From NCBI RefSeq assembly GCF_030013595.1, contig NZ_CP122768.1: DNA of 64,000 nt. One strand, 5' to 3'. Shown one piece after another: positions 29,360 to 41,847 of this stretch (its first letter is position 1; each line of letters opens with the position of its first letter). Source of the DNA: Escherichia coli (GTDB lineage Bacteria > Pseudomonadota > Gammaproteobacteria > Enterobacterales > Enterobacteriaceae). Under the pieces are notes generated by a model that was not told the DNA's origin, did no database searches, and saw only the letters and a list, made by a program, of their open reading frames with translations. Made by a program: the position numbers and the translations under genes.

Positions 29360-31831
29360 TTAAGAATCAGCCTGACTCGGGATCAGTTTTTGCCAGATAA
29401 CTGAAACGTATTTTGCTTGGTAACGGGCGTCATCAAGTGCATTATGGCGCTCACCTTCGAATGGAATAGCCGTTCTGGCATCGAAATCTATGGCTTTCCC
29501 CAGCTCAACGATTGTGCGTACATCGCGATCGTTGTAGTAACGCCACGGGCAGGGGATCCCCTGCCGTTCGTATGAACGGCGCAAAATCGTGTTGTCGAAG
29601 TTGGCTCCATTTCCCCAAACCTGAACAAAAAATTCACCGGAGTTTTCGTCGATAAATTCCCGCAATTGTAACAGTGCATCATCTAACGGGATTTCATCGG
29701 TCATAATGGCAGATTGTGCTTCGCGTGATTGCTTAAGCCACCATTTAATGGTGTCCCGATCAATGACTCCGCCAGCAGTTTCCAGATCGATAGTCTTACT
29801 AAATTCCGGTCCTATATCTCCGGTTTGCGGATCGAAAAATATTGCACCTATTGAGATGATCGGTGCATCAGGATTTTTTCCCATGGTTTCAAGGTCGATC
29901 ATTAGATGGTCACACGTCCTGCTGGTGGATGTGATTTTGTGATGACCGTTCACCTTAATTGAGTGATCTGCCGTCTCGCCAGTTTCATTATCGCTATTGT
30001 GATGCTGATTGCCGCCAGTGTTCTCCTTGTGTGGATGTTCAGCGCCTTCCATTTCCTCCGGATCATCTTCCTGAACTTCAACCTGATACTCTTCATCGAA
30101 TGTTTCTTGGTATGTTGCGTCGCCCATCACCGCGCCACAATCAGGGCAGTTGCCGCCGCCGGTCTGACCGCAGGCGGTGCAGACTTTTTCCACTTCCTGT
30201 TGCGCCACTGGTTCAGGCTGTTTCGTTTCTGGCTCGTTTTGTAACGCATTTGGGCTGTTTTGTTCCGCTTTTTGGTAGTTCCGTTCCGATTCATGCTGGT
30301 TCTGGTTCACAGAATCGCGGGTCTGGATCCCCTTAACCCATTTCGGATCATTCGGGTCACTAATCCCTTCAACAAATTCACCATGTGATGCAGCAAGCAA
30401 CTTATCGGCGTCAGGCTGGCTGATATTGGCTGCCTGCATAATTTTGTTTACTTCGTCAGCGGTAACTTTTATCGGCTCTGGTTGTTCTGAATCTTCAGCG
30501 GTATCTACATTTTGCGGTAAGCCCGTGTATGTGCCATTTTTTCGGGCAAAATATTCTTCTTTTGTGATTTCAGTGGCGCCAGCAGCCAGTGCCTTATCTA
30601 GACCAGAAAGTTTGTTTGCGCGACCGTATTTTTCTCCGTCCTTATCTGCGAAGAGGAAATAGAACGGCCCCTCACGCTCTACAGATGGTTCAGCTTCCGG
30701 CGCGGTTTCATTTTTTGGGATATCAGATACCTCAGTTTCCACTGCATCAGTTTGTGTTTCTGATGACTGGAGAACATCAACAGTGCCCAGGTCTGTTTCT
30801 TCATTCTCAAACACGCCCTTTGTCGTCAGGTATTCGCAGATATATTTGTTCAGTGCTACGGGATCTTTGTGAATGTCGATCGGACGCTCACGGACAAGGC
30901 CAAAAATAGTTTGGCGGTCGTAGCGAAGGGCATCAGGCTGTTTGCGCATTGATGCCGAGATACGCTTCCAGTCTTCGCGGTCGTTGTCGATAACTTCTTT
31001 TTTTGCCCAGCGATGGATGCTGCCGTCAATGTTTCCGGCATCCACATCACCAGGCCAGAGAGCGTAGGCCAGTTCGTCATCCAGTGTTTTCCATGTCTGC
31101 TTGTATTCGCGATGAATGGCAGCAATGACCGGGCTGATTTTTCCTGTTGAATTTTCAGTGTACTGTTGATTGGCTCTGGCGCGGGCGAGATCAACAACAG
31201 ACGTGTATTTTCCGGTTTCCTTGCGTTCACCTTCGCGACGTTTTTTCCAGATGCGCATCTCTGCCTGAATTTCGGGCCATTTAGCACCAGGAATACATTT
31301 ATGCTTAACCCACCCAATGGCGTGCAACTTAAGCTCCGGATACATGGCGTTAACTTCTGGCATTTTCATCAACGCTTCAACGATATGTCCGTCGAATGTT
31401 GCCATGTCTTCCTGCAACAATTCCTGTGCGCTAATAACCATATCAACGGTGATGTTTTCACATGTGTCGAACTTAACCATGACAGCGTTCTGTACTTCAG
31501 GGGCCAGCTTGTCAAAAGTGACGTTCATCGGATCGGATTCAGTCTCAACCGGGACAAAAGAAGCAGACTCCTCATCCCAGCGGTTTTCCTGCATATATTC
31601 AGCATCCCATGAATCGAGGGCAGGGCGGGGTATGCCAGGTTTATCCTCGCAGACAATAAATTTATAAGCGCAGTCCTGAGCAGCCGGATAATGTTCCAGG
31701 AACTGCCAGTGAAATTTTGCTCGAGCACGGCGTTCGTCGCCAGCTTCAATGGCTGTGGCTACAGCCACAGCGCCTTCTTCCCTTGTTGCCAGTTCGTCAG
31801 GAATAGCGGCGCAAATAAAGACTTTACTCAT
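29360..31831 (-). CDS. prophage exonuclease-family protein (C-terminal DEDD-type 3'-5' exonuclease fold)
   Basis: 823 aa; C-terminus has DLET...GxNxxFD...H..LDDA exonuclease motifs; acidic central region. Confidence 0.65.
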   Translation of the reverse strand: MSKVFICAAIPDELATREEGAVAVATAIEAGDERRARAKFHWQFLEHYPAAQDCAYKFIVCEDKPGIPRPALDSWDAEYMQENRWDEESASFVPVETESDPMNVTFDKLAPEVQNAVMVKFDTCENITVDMVISAQELLQEDMATFDGHIVEALMKMPEVNAMYPELKLHAIGWVKHKCIPGAKWPEIQAEMRIWKKRREGERKETGKYTSVVDLARARANQQYTENSTGKISPVIAAIHREYKQTWKTLDDELAYALWPGDVDAGNIDGSIHRWAKKEVIDNDREDWKRISASMRKQPDALRYDRQTIFGLVRERPIDIHKDPVALNKYICEYLTTKGVFENEETDLGTVDVLQSSETQTDAVETEVSDIPKNETAPEAEPSVEREGPFYFLFADKDGEKYGRANKLSGLDKALAAGATEITKEEYFARKNGTYTGLPQNVDTAEDSEQPEPIKVTADEVNKIMQAANISQPDADKLLAASHGEFVEGISDPNDPKWVKGIQTRDSVNQNQHESERNYQKAEQNSPNALQNEPETKQPEPVAQQEVEKVCTACGQTGGGNCPDCGAVMGDATYQETFDEEYQVEVQEDDPEEMEGAEHPHKENTGGNQHHNSDNETGETADHSIKVNGHHKITSTSRTCDHLMIDLETMGKNPDAPIISIGAIFFDPQTGDIGPEFSKTIDLETAGGVIDRDTIKWWLKQSREAQSAIMTDEIPLDDALLQLREFIDENSGEFFVQVWGNGANFDNTILRRSYERQGIPCPWRYYNDRDVRTIVELGKAIDFDARTAIPFEGERHNALDDARYQAKYVSVIWQKLIPSQADS

Positions 31832-32470: not shown

Positions 32471-32528
32471 AAAAACGGCGGCAGAGCAGTCACGGAGTAA
32501 AACTGATACCGCCAAACGTCACCAGAAA
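32471..32528 (-). ncRNA. dicF: DicF small regulatory RNA (ftsZ antisense)
   Basis: Minus-strand sequence TTTCTGGTGACGTTTGGCGGTATCAGTTTTACTCCGTGACTGCTCTGCCGCCGTTTTT matches recalled DicF; located upstream of dicB. Confidence 0.8.
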
Positions 32529-35877: not shown

Positions 35878-36273
35878 GTGGCAAAAGTTTTTACACAGGA
35901 AGAGCGGGAAAAAATTAAAGAGCAGGTGGTCGAACTTGTGCGCCAGAGCGGTCGCGAGACATTACGACAGTTGGAAGCTAAAACAGGTGCGACAAGATAT
36001 CTGATGAGCATTCTTGCCAGAGAGCTGGTTGCCAGTGGTTATGTATACAACTCCGGCTACGGGTTATTCCCGTCTGAACAGGCACGAAAGGACTGGCAAA
36101 ATGCCCGCAAAAAACTCTCTAGGGCGAAGGTGAAGAAACCCGCTGTGGTTGATCCGGACCTTATCTGGTCACTACCTGATGGAGAAATACGTCGCTACGA
36201 CAGTCGTCTAAACATAATCTGTCGCGAGTGCCGGAAGAGCGAAGTTATGCAGCGCATATTGTCGTTTTATTAG
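35878..36273 (+). CDS. hypothetical protein
   Basis: 131-aa ORF with RBS AAGGAGG. Confidence 0.5.
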   Translation: MAKVFTQEEREKIKEQVVELVRQSGRETLRQLEAKTGATRYLMSILARELVASGYVYNSGYGLFPSEQARKDWQNARKKLSRAKVKKPAVVDPDLIWSLPDGEIRRYDSRLNIICRECRKSEVMQRILSFY

Positions 36274-36615
36274 GGAAATGTTCGGTATCTATTTAAGTGA
36301 CGAGATTAAAGTGCATTAGTTAAGATGTAAATTGACATTTTCATGGCATAGGGTAGAGGTAGCGTGGTTGTCTGCTTTGTGCCATGAACTGATGTCGCTT
36401 GTGTGCGTGGCAATTAGTGTATAACGGATATCATCAGACTCCAGCAGTAGCATTGCTTGAGCATACTAACATATGAAATCTTTAGTTAACGTAAGATAAA
36501 TTAGATTTAGTTTTTTTGAGTATGAGCTCATAAATAATCAAAAAAACTTGATACGCCATATGACTTTGATTTATTTTGGGAAAATATAAAGGTAATGTAA
36601 TGTAAAGAGGAAAAT

Positions 36616-38103
36616 GTGGACATTAGAGACTGGCTACCAGAATTTCAAGTTTCAGCAGAAACAGATCGGGACTTACAGACCTATTTTTTTAAGCTACCGG
36701 CGATAAAGGATATTATTGAAAGTAGGGCTTGGTTGGTTCTTGGAAGAAAAGGTACTGGTAAAACAGCCATTTATGAACACCTTAGAAGAGGAAAACCAGC
36801 CAATCTCAACGGGTTTTACTCAGTATGTCTAAATTTTAGTGACTATCCATGGCCAGCCCATCAACTTTACAAGGATGCAATGGCTGGAGAACTTTCCGCT
36901 TATCAAAAAAGTTGGATGTATCTTTTTTATATTAAGGCATTATCTAAACTTATTGAAATAAAAAATGATGCTGGAGAGACTTTAAACAAAGATCTAACGT
37001 GGGCACATAATTATATCAAAACTATCTTTGGTAGTCCCGACCCAACTCTTAGGGAGGTTTTGTTTTCAAAAATAACCAGATTAAAAACCATAAAAGGGCC
37101 CAGTGCTGGTCTTAATGAAGTATCATTGGACGCAGGTGAAATTTCGTTAGAGGAAGTTGCTGAGAATGCTCAGCTAAAGCAAAAGCTAAGAGCTAATGCT
37201 TTCACATTGCTTACGTATTTTGAAAAAATTTTTAAAGATAACATTGGTAATGAAAAAATAATTATCGCCCTTGACCAATTAGACGAAAACTGGCTAGAGG
37301 GGCAAATTGAAGAATATAGTAAGGTTTTAATAAATCTGCTAAATGTCTGTAGAAACATAGCATCTGATGAACGCCTCAATGATAAATTAAAAGTCATTCC
37401 CTTCCTACGAACGGATATTTATCATTCTTTGAAATTCAATGATAAAAACAAATTATTGCAAGATAGTGCTATCATAATCTCATGGAATGAAAATAATCTA
37501 AACGATATGTATTATGAGAGGATAAAGAAATACAAACCTAATGATCTCATATTAGATGACGAAAAGGACAGATCTGGGAAAGTATTTGAGGTTTCATTCG
37601 TTAGGCAGGGGACTCCTCCATTTAAATATATATGTCGCCGTTCTTTCTTTAGGCCTAGGGATATTATTGTCTACTTCAACAAAATTAGGGCATGTCATAA
37701 AAATAATGTCTCAGGTCTTTACACTTCCAATGAGCTTTATGAAGCTGACCGTGAAGCATCTATAAGTGTGTACAATGAGGTGATTGATGAATGGTCCAAC
37801 CAATTCCCTGAAATTGAGAACTTACTAACTGTTCTTCAAACTATCCAAGTAGAAACATTCGATTTTAATGATTTCTCCGAGAAGTGCCGTAATGAATTTG
37901 CAGGTATTTCTGATGGGGTGATACGTCAATATATCAACTTCCTGTTTGATAACTCACTTATCGGACAAAAAAAACAAGGTAGATGGGAATACGTAAGTAG
38001 TTTGCCTAACTTAAAAATTAATCTACAAAATGAGTTTAGGACACATCATGCTTTAAAATACAGGTTGCATTTAATAGAAAGCAGACCGAGCCAAAATATT
38101 TAG
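36616..38103 (+). CDS. uncharacterised P-loop NTPase (candidate defence/abortive-infection moron)
   Basis: 495 aa from GTG with RBS AAGAGG; Walker A GRKGTGKT, Walker B-like IIIALDQLDE; gene and upstream region markedly AT-rich. Confidence 0.6.
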   Translation: MDIRDWLPEFQVSAETDRDLQTYFFKLPAIKDIIESRAWLVLGRKGTGKTAIYEHLRRGKPANLNGFYSVCLNFSDYPWPAHQLYKDAMAGELSAYQKSWMYLFYIKALSKLIEIKNDAGETLNKDLTWAHNYIKTIFGSPDPTLREVLFSKITRLKTIKGPSAGLNEVSLDAGEISLEEVAENAQLKQKLRANAFTLLTYFEKIFKDNIGNEKIIIALDQLDENWLEGQIEEYSKVLINLLNVCRNIASDERLNDKLKVIPFLRTDIYHSLKFNDKNKLLQDSAIIISWNENNLNDMYYERIKKYKPNDLILDDEKDRSGKVFEVSFVRQGTPPFKYICRRSFFRPRDIIVYFNKIRACHKNNVSGLYTSNELYEADREASISVYNEVIDEWSNQFPEIENLLTVLQTIQVETFDFNDFSEKCRNEFAGISDGVIRQYINFLFDNSLIGQKKQGRWEYVSSLPNLKINLQNEFRTHHALKYRLHLIESRPSQNI

Positions 38104-38451
38104 CTTACATCCATCTCCATTAAGAAATCTTGCTATTGTTCTTATGGATCGTCTTTCTGACTGATTTCATATTGGCGAGGTAAAGGTAGTTAAGTAGAAT
38201 GGCTGCGGGTGCTTGAGGCTATCTGCCTCGGGCATGAACACCAAAGGCAGATAGAGAAAAGCCCCAGTTAACATTACGCGTCCTGCAAGACGCTTAACAT
38301 TAATCTGAGGCCAATTTCATGCTAGACACATGTAGGTTAGCCTCTTACGTGCCGAAAGGCAAGGAGAAGCAGGCTAGTGTTAACACCAAGCTGTAATGTC
38401 CCCTTTGAACCATTCTAAAATGTCCCCAGACAATTCTCTGGGGGATTTTTC

Positions 38452-39792
38452 ATGATCAAAGAGACTGTTACGATGAGTCATAAGGAACTCCACCGACTTC
38501 AGATTATTCAGGAGTCAATTAATCGACATATTACTCAGGAACAAGCTGCGGCACGCATTGGCATTTCTATTCGGCAGGTTAAACGTCTGGTGCAACGGTA
38601 TAGAAATGAAGGGCCTTCTGGTCTGGTTTCCCACCGACGTGGAAAGCGTCCTAATAATTCCTTTTCTACTGAATTCAGAGCAACAGTAATTTCACTCCTC
38701 AAAGGCCGTTACGCTGATTTTGGACCTACGTTTGCGTGCGAAAAATTGCGCGAGATACACGGTTTATCTTTATCCGTTGAAACTCTCAGAAAGTGGATGA
38801 TAGAAGAGGGGTTATGGCGTGAACGCCGTCGTAAAATTGCCCGTATATATCAACGCCGCATGCGACGACCATCTTACGGTGAACTGATCCAGATTGATGG
38901 CTCACCTCATGACTGGTTTGAAAATCGAGGCCCCAGATGTACACTGATCGTTTTCATTGATGATGCCACCAGTGCGTTGATGGCGTTGCGTTTTGTGCCT
39001 GCTGAAACAACCCGGGCTTACATGGAAACCCTCCGGGGTTACCTTAATGATCATGGCGTACCGCTCGCTCTCTACTCTGATAGACACAGTATATTCAGGG
39101 TAAATAACCCAGAGCGGGAAGGTGAGCTGACCCAGTTCACTCGTGCGATAAAGACACTGGGCATCGAGCCAATCCATGCCAACAGCCCGCAGGCAAAAGG
39201 GCGGGTAGAGCGCGCCAATCAGACACTACAGGACAGGCTGGTCAAAGAAATGCGGCTTCAGAATATCAGTGATATTGAAACAGCAAATGCATGGTTGCCG
39301 ACCTTTATTGAAGCCTATAACAACCGGTTCGCTACGTCGCCTCGTACTACTGATAATGCTCATCTTGATGAGCACCATTCTGAAGAGGAACTGGGTTATA
39401 TCTTCAGCCTACAGGCGAAGCGCGTTCTGTCTAAAAATCTCACTTTCCAGTACAAAAGCAGTGCGTTTCAGGTACGCAGTGAGGGCCGGGGATATCGACT
39501 TAGGCATTCGGTTGTTACTGTATGCGAGAACTTTGACGGTGAAATTAACGTTCTGTATGACGGGAAAGCGCTGGGCTGGGAAAAGTATGTTGATGGCCCG
39601 GAGCCTATACCACTGGATGATGAAAAGAGTGTCCATGAACGAGTGGATAATGCCCGTATTGATTTACGCTCAAAATACTATGTTAAACCTAAAGCTGACC
39701 ATCCCTGGCTTACGCGCCGAACGCAAAGTCATCAGCAAGTTAAGCCCCCGAAGTTACCTAAAAAGAAGCCTGATCCCGATAAAAAAGATTGA
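38452..39792 (+). CDS. DDE transposase, ISNCY/IS1202-group-like
   Basis: 446 aa; N-terminal HTH and integrase-core (DDE) region; basic C-terminus; element ends not resolved. Confidence 0.65.
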   Translation: MIKETVTMSHKELHRLQIIQESINRHITQEQAAARIGISIRQVKRLVQRYRNEGPSGLVSHRRGKRPNNSFSTEFRATVISLLKGRYADFGPTFACEKLREIHGLSLSVETLRKWMIEEGLWRERRRKIARIYQRRMRRPSYGELIQIDGSPHDWFENRGPRCTLIVFIDDATSALMALRFVPAETTRAYMETLRGYLNDHGVPLALYSDRHSIFRVNNPEREGELTQFTRAIKTLGIEPIHANSPQAKGRVERANQTLQDRLVKEMRLQNISDIETANAWLPTFIEAYNNRFATSPRTTDNAHLDEHHSEEELGYIFSLQAKRVLSKNLTFQYKSSAFQVRSEGRGYRLRHSVVTVCENFDGEINVLYDGKALGWEKYVDGPEPIPLDDEKSVHERVDNARIDLRSKYYVKPKADHPWLTRRTQSHQQVKPPKLPKKKPDPDKKD

Positions 39793-41691: not shown

Positions 41692-41847
41692 ATGAAGCAG
41701 CAAAAGGCGATGTTAATCGCCCTGATCGTCATCTGTTTAACCGTCATAGTGACGGCACTGGTAACGAGGAAAGACCTCTGCGAGGTACGAATCCGAACCG
41801 GCCAGACGGAGGTCGCTGTCTTCACAGCTTACGAACCTGAGGAGTAA
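41692..41847 (+). CDS. hokD: Hok-family membrane toxin HokD (RelF)
   Basis: 51 aa MKQQKAMLIALIVICLTVIVTALVTRKDLCEVRIRTGQTEVAVFTAYEPEE; below ORF-track cutoff. Confidence 0.85.
   Translation: MKQQKAMLIALIVICLTVIVTALVTRKDLCEVRIRTGQTEVAVFTAYEPEE

What the first reader, a model, noticed from the sequence alone, without database searches (positions are those of the whole stretch)
36280..38103. AT-rich moron encoding an uncharacterised P-loop NTPase: candidate anti-phage defence gene
A 495-aa ORF with Walker A GRKGTGKT near the N-terminus and a Walker B-like hhhhDQLDE motif lies in a conspicuously AT-rich block between the replication module and the flxA-relBE region, a position where lambdoid prophages commonly carry defence or exclusion morons. 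I cannot assign it to a named defence family from sequence alone. Any partner gene may have been lost to the adjacent transposase insertion.
Basis: partly seen in the sequence, partly recalled or inferred. Interest (0 to 1): 0.6.

Follow-up and report, generated by a model that had tools for sequence, protein, structure and literature searches.

The report
FunZ-like phage-exclusion ATPase in prophage
The AT-rich gene is real and encodes a stand-alone ATPase of the same family as Fun(Z), the phage P2 gene that blocks phage T5, so it is very probably a prophage-carried anti-phage gene of a known but mechanistically unsolved kind.

Summary
An intact 495-aa ORF (36616-38103, +) with Walker A GRKGTGKT and Walker B IIIALD-QLDE lies in a 1.74-kb AT-rich cassette (36385-38127; GC 0.35 against 0.47 in the flanks) of a Qin-like lambdoid prophage of E. 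coli.

The protein can be assigned to a family. It scores 250 bits against NCBIfam NF047389 ('P-loop ATPase, Sll1717 family', cut-off 75) and matches PHROG 13260. Phage P2 Fun(Z), the classical lysogenic-conversion gene that blocks T5, belongs to both. A profile built without Fun(Z) aligns to it end to end (E 1e-40).

The predicted fold (pLDDT 90.5) is a STAND/ORC-Cdc6-type AAA+ ATPase followed by C-terminal helices and a beta-hairpin, with no recognisable effector domain.

It is a single gene. Close homologues sit alone in both P2 accessory hotspots, beside a prophage integrase, at the end of a filamentous prophage and after a lactococcal phage lysin. No neighbour recurs in 42 loci.

The 'lost partner' idea fails. 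The IS cut a hok/sok copy, and IS-free genomes have no partner gene.

Defence activity and mechanism are inferred, not shown. PADLOC v2 has no model for this family. Verdict: a new member of a known kind, of moderate interest.

The parts
36385..38127 (.). Variable AT-rich cargo cassette (the moron): ATPase gene plus 231 bp upstream and 24 bp downstream.
   Evidence: blastn against five other variants of the DUF977-hokD slot: the left flank is conserved up to 36384 and the right flank from 38128. GC is about 0.35.
36616..38103 (+). 495-aa FunZ-family (NCBIfam NF047389 'Sll1717 family', PHROG 13260) STAND/ORC-Cdc6-type AAA+ ATPase; 57.9 kDa, soluble.
36742..36768 (+). Codons for Walker A GRKGTGKTA (aa 43-51).
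   Evidence: Read from the sequence. G43, K45, G46, G48 and K49 are invariant.
37258..37287 (+). Codons for Walker B IIIALDQLDE (aa 215-224).
   Evidence: Read from the sequence. D220 is invariant and D223 is 98% conserved.
36509..36577 (+). Upstream palindrome (36509-36548, 15-nt arms, 93% complementary) abutting a promoter-like TTGATA-N18-TATTTT (36548-36577). A candidate own promoter/operator; function not shown.
   Evidence: Promoter-like sites occur at chance frequency in this AT-rich stretch (8 found against 7.6 expected). The last ~100 bp upstream are partly conserved with the Proteus copy.
36340..36388 (+). Hairpin (18-nt arms) at the left border of the variable slot, inside the conserved flank after the DUF977 gene.
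35878..36273 (+). DUF977 gene, the conserved left anchor of the slot.
   Evidence: Present in 3,856 of 5,426 complete E. coli genomes.
38128..38376 (+). Orphan hok/sok leader, the conserved right anchor of the slot, including a full sok match at 38207-38373. It is cut exactly at the hokD ATG.
   Evidence: (RF01794, 111 bits).
38377..39792 (+). IS fragment. RefSeq calls the transposase an incomplete IS1202-like ISEsa1 family (ISNCY) transposase; its ORF is 38452-39792. It interrupts hokD and is not part of the ATPase cassette.

Best explanation
The ORF is a stand-alone member of the Fun(Z) family of P-loop ATPases. It is carried as a lysogenic-conversion (moron) gene in the hypervariable DUF977-hokD slot of a Qin-like lambdoid prophage. 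Its most likely role is to protect the lysogen against superinfecting, unrelated phages, as P2 Fun(Z) does against T5.

Proposed mechanism (inferred). The protein is a nucleotide-dependent switch of the STAND/ORC-Cdc6 type. The core carries Walker A/B, a conserved Arg265 at the end of the sensor-1 strand, Arg302 after strand 5, and an invariant RPRD (346-349) in the lid. It binds ATP and oligomerises when it meets a cue from the infecting phage.

The protein has no nuclease, protease, NADase or membrane domain. It is unusually conserved across phyla and has no hypervariable sensor region. The cue and target are therefore more likely a conserved nucleic-acid or replication/DNA-entry intermediate than a variable phage protein. 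Candidate contact surfaces are the large helical insert after strand 2 (aa 79-210) and the C-terminal helix and beta-hairpin region, which looks like a winged helix. The ATP-bound oligomer would then either occlude phage DNA directly or recruit a host factor to abort the infection.

Shown here: family membership, motif conservation, fold class, single-gene status, moron positions in several kinds of mobile element, and purifying selection. Inferred: expression in the lysogen, protection, the target phage, DNA binding, oligomerisation, and direct block versus abortive infection.
For: Family:
- NF047389 scores 250.4 bits (cut-off 75) over the full length. P2 Fun(Z) scores 209.4 bits on the same model.
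- Both match PHROG 13260 (118 and 704 bits).
- An HMM of 60 homologues built without Fun(Z) aligns to Fun(Z) over residues 20-523 of 527, 126 bits, E 1e-40, with every conserved motif shared.
- Pairwise BLASTP gives 18% identity, E 5e-7.
- RefSeq names P2 fun(Z) prophage copies 'Sll1717 family'.
- The AFDB50 hits ranked 1, 11, 19, 29, 34, 37 and 48 are UniProt 'FunZ protein' entries; the best is 63% identical, TM 0.88/0.96.

Function of the family founder:
- GenBank AF063097 note: 'cloned gene blocks growth of T5; nonessential; lysogenic conversion; confers sensitivity to FUdR'.
- PMC8987985, PMC9519451, PMC3091744 and PMC6823313 describe fun as a phage-exclusion or immunity gene.

Context:
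- The 81%-identical Serratia copy lies between gpA and the portal gene of a P2-like prophage, which is the old/tin hotspot.
- The 89%-identical Klebsiella copy lies between gpU and the tail-fibre gene.
- The Proteus copy lies beside a prophage integrase. The V. cholerae copy lies at the end of a Zot/Rep_trans filamentous prophage.
- Lactococcus phage CAP carries a member after its lysin, and plasmid p3107B carries one next to a PADLOC candidate.
- 40 IMG/VR viral contigs carry relatives.
- The E. coli slot holds different cargo in otherwise syntenic prophages, one of them PADLOC candidate PDC-S39.
- AT-richness is shared by family members in most host backgrounds sampled, including P2 fun(Z) at 0.328 against 0.542.

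Conflict-system fusions in the family: GT4-conflict glycosyltransferase, two EAD7 adaptor domains inserted after the P-loop, and an N-terminal cold-shock domain (EADs recruit effectors according to PMC7159879).

Single gene: no recurrent neighbour in 42 loci.

Selection: dN/dS 0.07.
Against: - No experiment bears on this allele, and identity to the one tested relative, P2 Fun(Z), is only about 18%. Specificity, and even phenotype, could differ.
- PADLOC v2 gives only a weak partial hit to an unvalidated candidate (PDC-M28C, E 4e-5, aa 212-304).
- No effector domain is visible, so the killing or blocking step is unexplained.
- High conservation (62-71% identity across Proteobacteria, Campylobacterota and Bacteroidota) and the absence of a hypervariable region are unusual for an immune sensor.
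- Expression is not shown. The promoter-like sites are at chance level, and AT-rich DNA in E. coli is commonly silenced by H-NS (general knowledge).
- Only 42 of 5,426 complete E. coli genomes carry it, and 4 of those copies are truncated or IS-disrupted.
- Motif roles (R265 as sensor 1, R302 as arginine finger, H477 as an MHD-like histidine) are assigned by position in the model and were not checked on coordinates.
Confidence: 0.6

Rival explanations
1. It is a replication protein of the prophage: an ORC/Cdc6- or DnaC/TnsC-like initiator or loader that works with the upstream replisome-organiser gene.
For: It lies directly downstream of the replication-region genes, on the same strand. Its fold neighbours include Cdc6/Orc1, DnaA, RFC, TnsC and MuB. 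Some family members weakly match Pfam ORC-CDC6-like and AAA_16.
Against: - It is present in 42 genomes, whereas the adjacent DUF977 gene is present in 3,856.
- The same slot holds unrelated cargo or almost nothing in syntenic prophages.
- Close homologues sit among tail genes, beside integrases, and after Zot or a lysin, not in replication modules.
- The cassette is compositionally foreign.
- P2 Fun(Z) is annotated as nonessential.
- TIGR02928 orc1/cdc6 scores 11 bits against a cut-off of 181.
Confidence: 0.04
2. It is a lysogenic-conversion or selfish gene whose selected function is not anti-phage. Possibilities include modulation of host nucleotide or DNA metabolism (compare the FUdR sensitisation by P2 Fun(Z)), an addiction or stabilisation function, or exclusion of plasmids or other mobile elements rather than phages.
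For: Fun(Z) has a phage-independent phenotype, FUdR sensitivity. The protein is strongly conserved and has no hypervariable sensor region. No effector domain is visible. Relatives also occur on 90 plasmid records.
Against: The only tested family member does block a phage. The gene sits in validated defence hotspots of P2-like phages. Family members are fused to conflict-system domains. No antitoxin-like partner exists.
Confidence: 0.2
3. In this genome the gene is a silent passenger: intact but not expressed, or not functional, inside a defective and IS-scarred Qin-like prophage.
For: The prophage carries IS insertions and pseudogenes. The cassette is AT-rich, which is typical of H-NS-silenced DNA (general knowledge). 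All E. coli copies are at least 99% identical, so selection within E. coli cannot be measured. Some copies are IS-disrupted or truncated.
Against: The ORF is intact and identical to the copy in 3 genomes, and 38 genomes have it at full length. Family-wide purifying selection is strong. The cassette carries its own upstream region, partly conserved with Proteus.
Confidence: 0.15

Closest known systems
Phage P2 Fun(Z) (Z/fun lysogenic-conversion gene; T5 exclusion)
   Same: Same NCBIfam (NF047389) and PHROG (13260) family. The two proteins are collinear end to end and share Walker A/B, W100, LRxD, DKNK, RPRD, S-x5-E-x3-E and the C-terminal H-x2-L motif. Both are about 500 aa, single genes, strongly AT-rich relative to their phage, and sit in a prophage accessory hotspot.
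   Different: Only about 18% pairwise identity. They belong to different sub-clades. This one sits in a lambdoid (Qin-like) prophage, not P2, although its 81-89% relatives do sit in P2-like hotspots. The target phage and FUdR phenotype are unknown for this protein. The mechanism of Fun(Z) itself is not described in any paper found.
ORC/Cdc6-clade AAA+ ATPases of defence systems (BREX BrxC/BrxD) and archaeal ATPases SSO1545/PAB2304
   Different: 12-16% identity and no sequence-level membership. BrxC is 1,200-1,300 aa and works within a multi-protein BREX complex. This protein is 495 aa and alone.
STAND NTPases of antiviral systems (Avs/AVAST, bacterial NLR-like)
   Different: It lacks both the C-terminal repeat sensor (TPR, LRR, WD40) and the N-terminal effector (nuclease, SIR2, TIR, protease) that define Avs/NLR proteins.
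PADLOC candidate PDC-M28 (gene C)
   Same: It is the only PADLOC-DB v2 model hit by both this protein (E 4e-5) and P2 Fun(Z) (E 3e-3).
   Different: The matches are weak and partial (about 90 and 60 residues). PDC-M28 is a multi-gene candidate and is listed only as a candidate. This is not a membership.

Membership tests
NCBIfam NF047389, P-loop ATPase Sll1717 family (contains P2 Fun(Z)) | Whole-protein HMM score at or above the curated cut-off (75 bits), with near full-length coverage. | tested here: met
   250.4 bits, residues 13-484 on profile positions 5-454 of 454. RefSeq annotates the identical protein this way.
NCBIfam NF047389, P-loop ATPase Sll1717 family (contains P2 Fun(Z)) | Intact Walker A and Walker B motifs. 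| tested here: met
   GRKGTGKT (aa 43-50) and IIIALD220-QLD223 are present; these positions are invariant or nearly so in 61 homologues.
P2 Fun(Z)-type phage-exclusion proteins (PHROG 13260) | Full-length sequence homology to P2 Fun(Z). | tested here: met
   PHROG 13260 at E 7.6e-34 for this protein and 1.9e-211 for Fun(Z). An independent HMM built without Fun(Z) hits it at E 1e-40 over 20-523 of 527. BLASTP E 5e-7, 18% identity.
P2 Fun(Z)-type phage-exclusion proteins (PHROG 13260) | A nonessential single accessory gene in a variable prophage locus, compositionally AT-rich. | tested here: met
   Variable slot. No conserved partner. GC 0.35 against 0.47; P2 fun(Z) 0.33 against 0.54. Close homologues lie in the P2 old/tin hotspot and a tail-gene locus.
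P2 Fun(Z)-type phage-exclusion proteins (PHROG 13260) | Blocks growth of phage T5 when expressed. | not testable with these tools
   Known only for P2 Fun(Z), from the GenBank note. It needs a plaque assay.
P2 Fun(Z)-type phage-exclusion proteins (PHROG 13260) | Sensitises the host to 5-fluorodeoxyuridine. | not testable with these tools
   GenBank note for P2 Fun(Z). It needs a growth assay.
[quoted passage not shown] | P-loop core with a helical insert after strand 2, a helical lid, then a winged-helix domain; structural similarity to clade members. | tested here: met
Avs/NLR-like antiviral STAND proteins | N-terminal effector domain and C-terminal repeat sensor flanking the NTPase. | tested here: not met
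   No such domains were found by Pfam or in the model; the 495 aa are filled by the NTPase, lid and WH-like region.
Orc1/Cdc6 replication initiators (TIGR02928) | HMM score at or above the cut-off (181.3 bits). | tested here: not met
   11.2 bits, P-loop region only.
KAP family P-loop NTPases (the name some databases give to relatives) | Transmembrane helices inserted in the P-loop domain; Pfam PF07693 match. | tested here: not met
   The maximum 19-residue Kyte-Doolittle mean is 0.83, so there is no TM segment. KAP_NTPase matched 1 of 61 homologues, at E 0.015.
Defence systems modelled in PADLOC-DB v2.0 | Significant full-length match to a system component. | tested here: not met
   Only PDC-M28C at E 4e-5 over aa 212-304. 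P2 Fun(Z) likewise has no proper model.
Two-gene ATPase-plus-effector systems (partner lost to the IS) | A conserved adjacent partner gene in intact loci. | tested here: not met
   IS-free loci run DUF977, then the ATPase, then hok/sok-hokD. No recurrent neighbour in 42 loci. The IS junction is at the hokD ATG and also exists without the ATPase.

The most novel reading that the evidence does not exclude
Fun(Z)-family proteins are a widespread single-protein immune module (at least 1,373 clusters at 50% identity) that defence-finding tools overlook. They consist only of a minimal STAND/ORC-like ATPase with no separate effector. They act directly on a conserved DNA feature of infection, such as nicks, gaps or ends, or a DNA-entry or replication intermediate. 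That would explain with one mechanism both T5 exclusion (T5 DNA is nicked and enters in two steps) and FUdR sensitisation (uracil excision creates nicks and gaps). It would also explain the unusual cross-phylum conservation.
Probability: 0.15. Interest if true: 0.7.

Novelty: new member of a known kind. Interest (0 to 1): 0.4.

Why it matters
Fun(Z) is one of the three classical P2 exclusion genes. It is the only one for which the searches made here found no mechanistic study; a 2026 preprint on OLD surfaced.

This finding shows four things:
- The family is large and moves as a one-gene AT-rich cassette among lambdoid, P2-like, filamentous and lactococcal phages and plasmids.
- The fold is a bare STAND/ORC-type ATPase.
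- PADLOC v2 has no model for the family, so genome surveys made with it miss these genes.
- The DUF977-hokD slot of Qin/Rac-like prophages, present in about 70% of complete E. coli genomes, is a cargo hotspot that may be worth mining.

The E. coli allele is a convenient second model, in a native K-12-like background, for working out how an effector-less ATPase can stop a phage.

Tried and rejected
- Pfam on the protein itself: nothing significant.
- Sequence search of the PDB, with the single sequence and with a profile: only generic P-loop matches.
- Foldseek against BFVD viral structures: no meaningful hit, and P2 Fun(Z) was not recovered.
- Literature: 'Sll1717' gave 0 papers and WP_000354584 gave 0. 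'FunZ' by word start returned only Italian-language noise. 'FunZ' plus 'phage' as whole words returned four papers with passing mentions. A search on fun gene, phage T5, P2 lysogens and FUdR found no mechanistic paper. Odegrip 2006 (PMC1367236) is not held.
- PADLOC: no system-level hit for this protein, P2 Fun(Z) or the lactococcal relatives.
- Partner-gene hypothesis: rejected.
- Replication-ATPase hypothesis: rejected on distribution and context.
- KAP or membrane NTPase: rejected, no TM segment.
- Flanking inverted repeats for cassette exchange, as reported for P2 Z/fun (PMC8987985): none found around 36385-38127, only local hairpins.
- Promoter scan: hits are at chance frequency, so no promoter is claimed.
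- Search for a hypervariable sensor patch within the close sub-family: only short variable loops.
Full report
**1. The observation.**
The ORF listing gives one long ORF at 36616-38103 (+), 495 aa, starting with GTG. An AGAGGA ribosome-binding site lies just upstream of it. The GTG aligns with the ATG start of the Serratia, Klebsiella and Proteus homologues, so the start is right.

Walker A GRKGTGKT is residues 43-50 and Walker B IIIALD-QLDE is residues 215-224. The key residues are invariant in 61 diverse homologues.

GC falls to 0.30-0.37 across 36200-38200, against 0.44-0.53 on either side. The ORF is under strong purifying selection: dN/dS is 0.07 against the Proteus copy, and synonymous sites are saturated against the other copies.

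**2. Where it sits.**
The window is E. coli. The region is a Qin-like lambdoid prophage integrated next to rspB. The gene order is:
- cI-like repressor (DicA-like), Cro/DicC, YdaT-like, a replisome-organiser-like ORF, DUF977;
- the ATPase;
- a hok/sok leader;
- an IS fragment;
- ydfW, flxA, ydfV, relBE, hokD.

blastn against other variants of the locus places the borders of the variable cassette at 36385 and 38127. The left flank (DUF977 plus a hairpin at 36340-36388) and the right flank (the hok/sok leader) are conserved. Between them, different prophages carry different cargo:
- this ATPase;
- a DUF4209 protein, which is PADLOC candidate PDC-S39;
- a small methyltransferase;
- two hypothetical proteins;
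- an alpha/beta hydrolase;
- about 0.5 kb with no annotated gene.

DUF977 is present in 3,856 of 5,426 complete E. coli genomes. The ATPase is in 42, all at least 99% identical, and 38 of those are full length. It is therefore cargo in a hotspot, not a core prophage gene.

**3. The 'lost partner'.**
In IS-free genomes such as NRG 857C the ATPase is followed directly by an intact hok/sok-hokD locus. In the window the IS begins exactly at the hokD ATG. Rfam finds a complete sok region at 38207-38373. Strain 789 has the same hok-leader/IS junction but no ATPase. I clustered neighbouring ORFs across 42 loci that carry family members and found no recurrent partner. The gene works alone, and the IS destroyed a hok copy rather than a partner.

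**4. What the protein is.**
Pfam finds nothing. PADLOC v2 gives only a weak partial hit to candidate PDC-M28C. NCBIfam NF047389, 'P-loop ATPase, Sll1717 family', matches at 250 bits over the full length, against a cut-off of 75. PHROG 13260 matches at E 7.6e-34.

Distant plasmid relatives annotated 'FunZ' led me to phage P2. P2 Fun(Z) scores 209 bits on NF047389 and 704 bits on PHROG 13260. An HMM built from 60 homologues of the window protein, with Fun(Z) left out, aligns to Fun(Z) from residue 20 to 523 of 527 (126 bits, E 1e-40) and shares every conserved motif. RefSeq labels prophage copies of P2 fun(Z) with the same family name. Seven of the listed AFDB50 hits, including the best one (63% identical, TM 0.88/0.96), are UniProt entries named 'FunZ protein'.

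Pairwise identity to P2 Fun(Z) is only about 18%. This is a distant branch of the family.

**5. What Fun(Z) does.**
The P2 GenBank record says 'cloned gene blocks growth of T5; nonessential; lysogenic conversion; confers sensitivity to FUdR'. Reviews and screens call fun a phage-exclusion or defence gene. They also describe the two P2 hotspots: old/tin between gpA and the portal gene, and Z/fun by the tail genes (PMC8987985, PMC9519451, bioRxiv 2024.10.15.618418, PMC3091744, PMC6823313). I found no paper on its mechanism.

**6. Contexts of homologues.**

| Host or element | Identity to window protein | Position |
|---|---|---|
| Serratia, P2-like prophage | 81% | between gpA and the portal gene (old/tin hotspot) |
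| Klebsiella, P2-like prophage | 89% | between gpU and the tail-fibre gene |
| Proteus | 88-89% | next to a prophage integrase |
| V. cholerae | 71% | end of a filamentous prophage (Rep_trans, Zot) |
| Arcobacteraceae | 69% | near AbiTii |
| Enterobacter | 64% | island next to TacA-like/GNAT genes |
| Lactococcus phage CAP | family member by NF047389 | after the lysin, at the genome end |
| Lactococcus plasmid p3107B | family member by NF047389 | beside PADLOC candidate PDC-S15 |

Forty IMG/VR viral contigs carry relatives. The gene is AT-rich relative to its flanks in most hosts sampled, as P2 fun(Z) is (0.33 against 0.54).

**7. Fold and architecture.**
AlphaFold2 run on alignment A1 gives pLDDT 90.5 and pTM 0.88. 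The layout is:
- a short N-terminal helical segment;
- a P-loop core with a large helical insert after strand 2 (aa 79-210, with a disordered loop at 156-177);
- Walker B strand 214-220;
- strand 258-265, ending in invariant R265;
- a helical lid with invariant RPRD (346-349);
- C-terminal helices with a beta-hairpin (400-476) and a conserved H477.

There is no TM segment and no effector domain.

Some family members carry fusions typical of conflict systems:
- a C-terminal GT4-conflict glycosyltransferase;
- two EAD7 adaptor domains inserted after the P-loop (role of EADs from PMC7159879);
- an N-terminal cold-shock domain.

**8. Mechanism.**
Shown: family membership, an intact ATPase site, fold class, single-gene status, mobility as a cassette, and selection.

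Inferred: the protein is made in the lysogen. It acts as an ATP-dependent switch that oligomerises on a cue from infection, and it then blocks the phage directly or through a host factor.

Sequences of 62-71% identity are spread across phyla, and the close sub-family has no hypervariable domain. Both facts argue for a conserved cue, such as a DNA structure or a replication or entry intermediate, rather than a fast-evolving phage protein. The motif roles I give (R265 as sensor 1, R302 as arginine finger, H477 as MHD-like) are positional guesses.

**9. Rivals.**
- A replication role fits the position and the fold. It does not fit the patchy distribution, the foreign composition, or the non-replicative contexts of homologues.
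- A non-phage lysogenic-conversion role cannot be excluded, because Fun(Z) has an FUdR phenotype.
- Silence in this defective prophage cannot be excluded either.

**10. Verdict.**
The finding is real and the defence reading is reasonable. It rests on homology to a classical exclusion gene plus guilt by association. The gene is not unassignable and has lost no partner. It is a new, distant member of the known Fun(Z) family.

Interest is moderate. The result is expected in kind, but the family is large, mechanistically unsolved and absent from PADLOC v2.

Noticed in passing
window 38128-38376 (sok match 38207-38373), IS from 38377; second hokD at 41692-41847: There is an orphan hok/sok leader with a full Rfam sok match (RF01794, 111 bits). 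An ISEsa1/ISNCY-type IS cuts it exactly at the hokD start codon. A second, intact hokD lies downstream of relBE and has no sok match. Strain 789 has the same junction without the ATPase, so the window looks like a mosaic of two Qin variants.
   Followed up: partly
window 35878-36384 and 38128-38376; loci L002, L056-L060: The DUF977-hokD interval of Qin/Rac-like prophages is a hypervariable cargo slot in E. coli. Its occupants include DUF4209 (PADLOC candidate PDC-S39), a small methyltransferase, two hypothetical proteins, an alpha/beta hydrolase, the relBE-flxA block, or nothing annotated. DUF977 is present in 3,856 of 5,426 genomes. The slot could be mined as a defence hotspot.
   Followed up: partly
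window 36340-36388: A hairpin with 18-nt arms (TTCATGGCA...TGCCATGAA) lies right after the DUF977 gene, at the conserved left border of the slot. It is partly conserved upstream of the Klebsiella and Proteus copies. It could be a terminator or a recombination landmark.
   Followed up: no
window 36509-36548: A near-perfect AT-rich palindrome (AGTTTTTTTGAGTAT / ATAATCAAAAAAACT) abuts the promoter-like TTGATA upstream of the ATPase. It is a possible operator or a bidirectional terminator.
   Followed up: no
window 32476-32527 (-): DicF antisense sRNA (Rfam RF00039, 72.5 bits) lies in the dicB region of the prophage, as in K-12 Qin.
   Followed up: no
proteins P0164, P0170, P0249 (family representatives): Family members carry fusions: a C-terminal GT4-conflict glycosyltransferase; two EAD7 adaptor domains inserted after the P-loop, at the position of the helical insert; and an N-terminal cold-shock domain. 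These suggest that the helical insert is a docking or sensing site and that some branches of the family use separate effectors.
   Followed up: partly
homologues P0010-P0120; loci L003, L006, L007, L009, L013: This sub-family is unusually conserved: 62-71% identity and a constant length of about 494 aa across Gammaproteobacteria, Nitrosomonas, Campylobacterota, Bdellovibrionota and Bacteroidota, although synonymous sites are saturated. That is unexpected for an immune gene.
   Followed up: partly
L009 7562-8416 (-), Serratia P2-like prophage: A 284-aa ORF with no Pfam or PADLOC match shares the gpA-portal hotspot with the Serratia homologue, on the opposite strand. It is a candidate independent cargo gene.
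   Followed up: no
window about 30489-31717 (L001 6290-7518): An IS3-family element lies between the dicB-ydfD genes and the 3'-5' exonuclease gene of the prophage, abutting the exonuclease gene's annotated start. It is another sign that this prophage is decaying.
   Followed up: no
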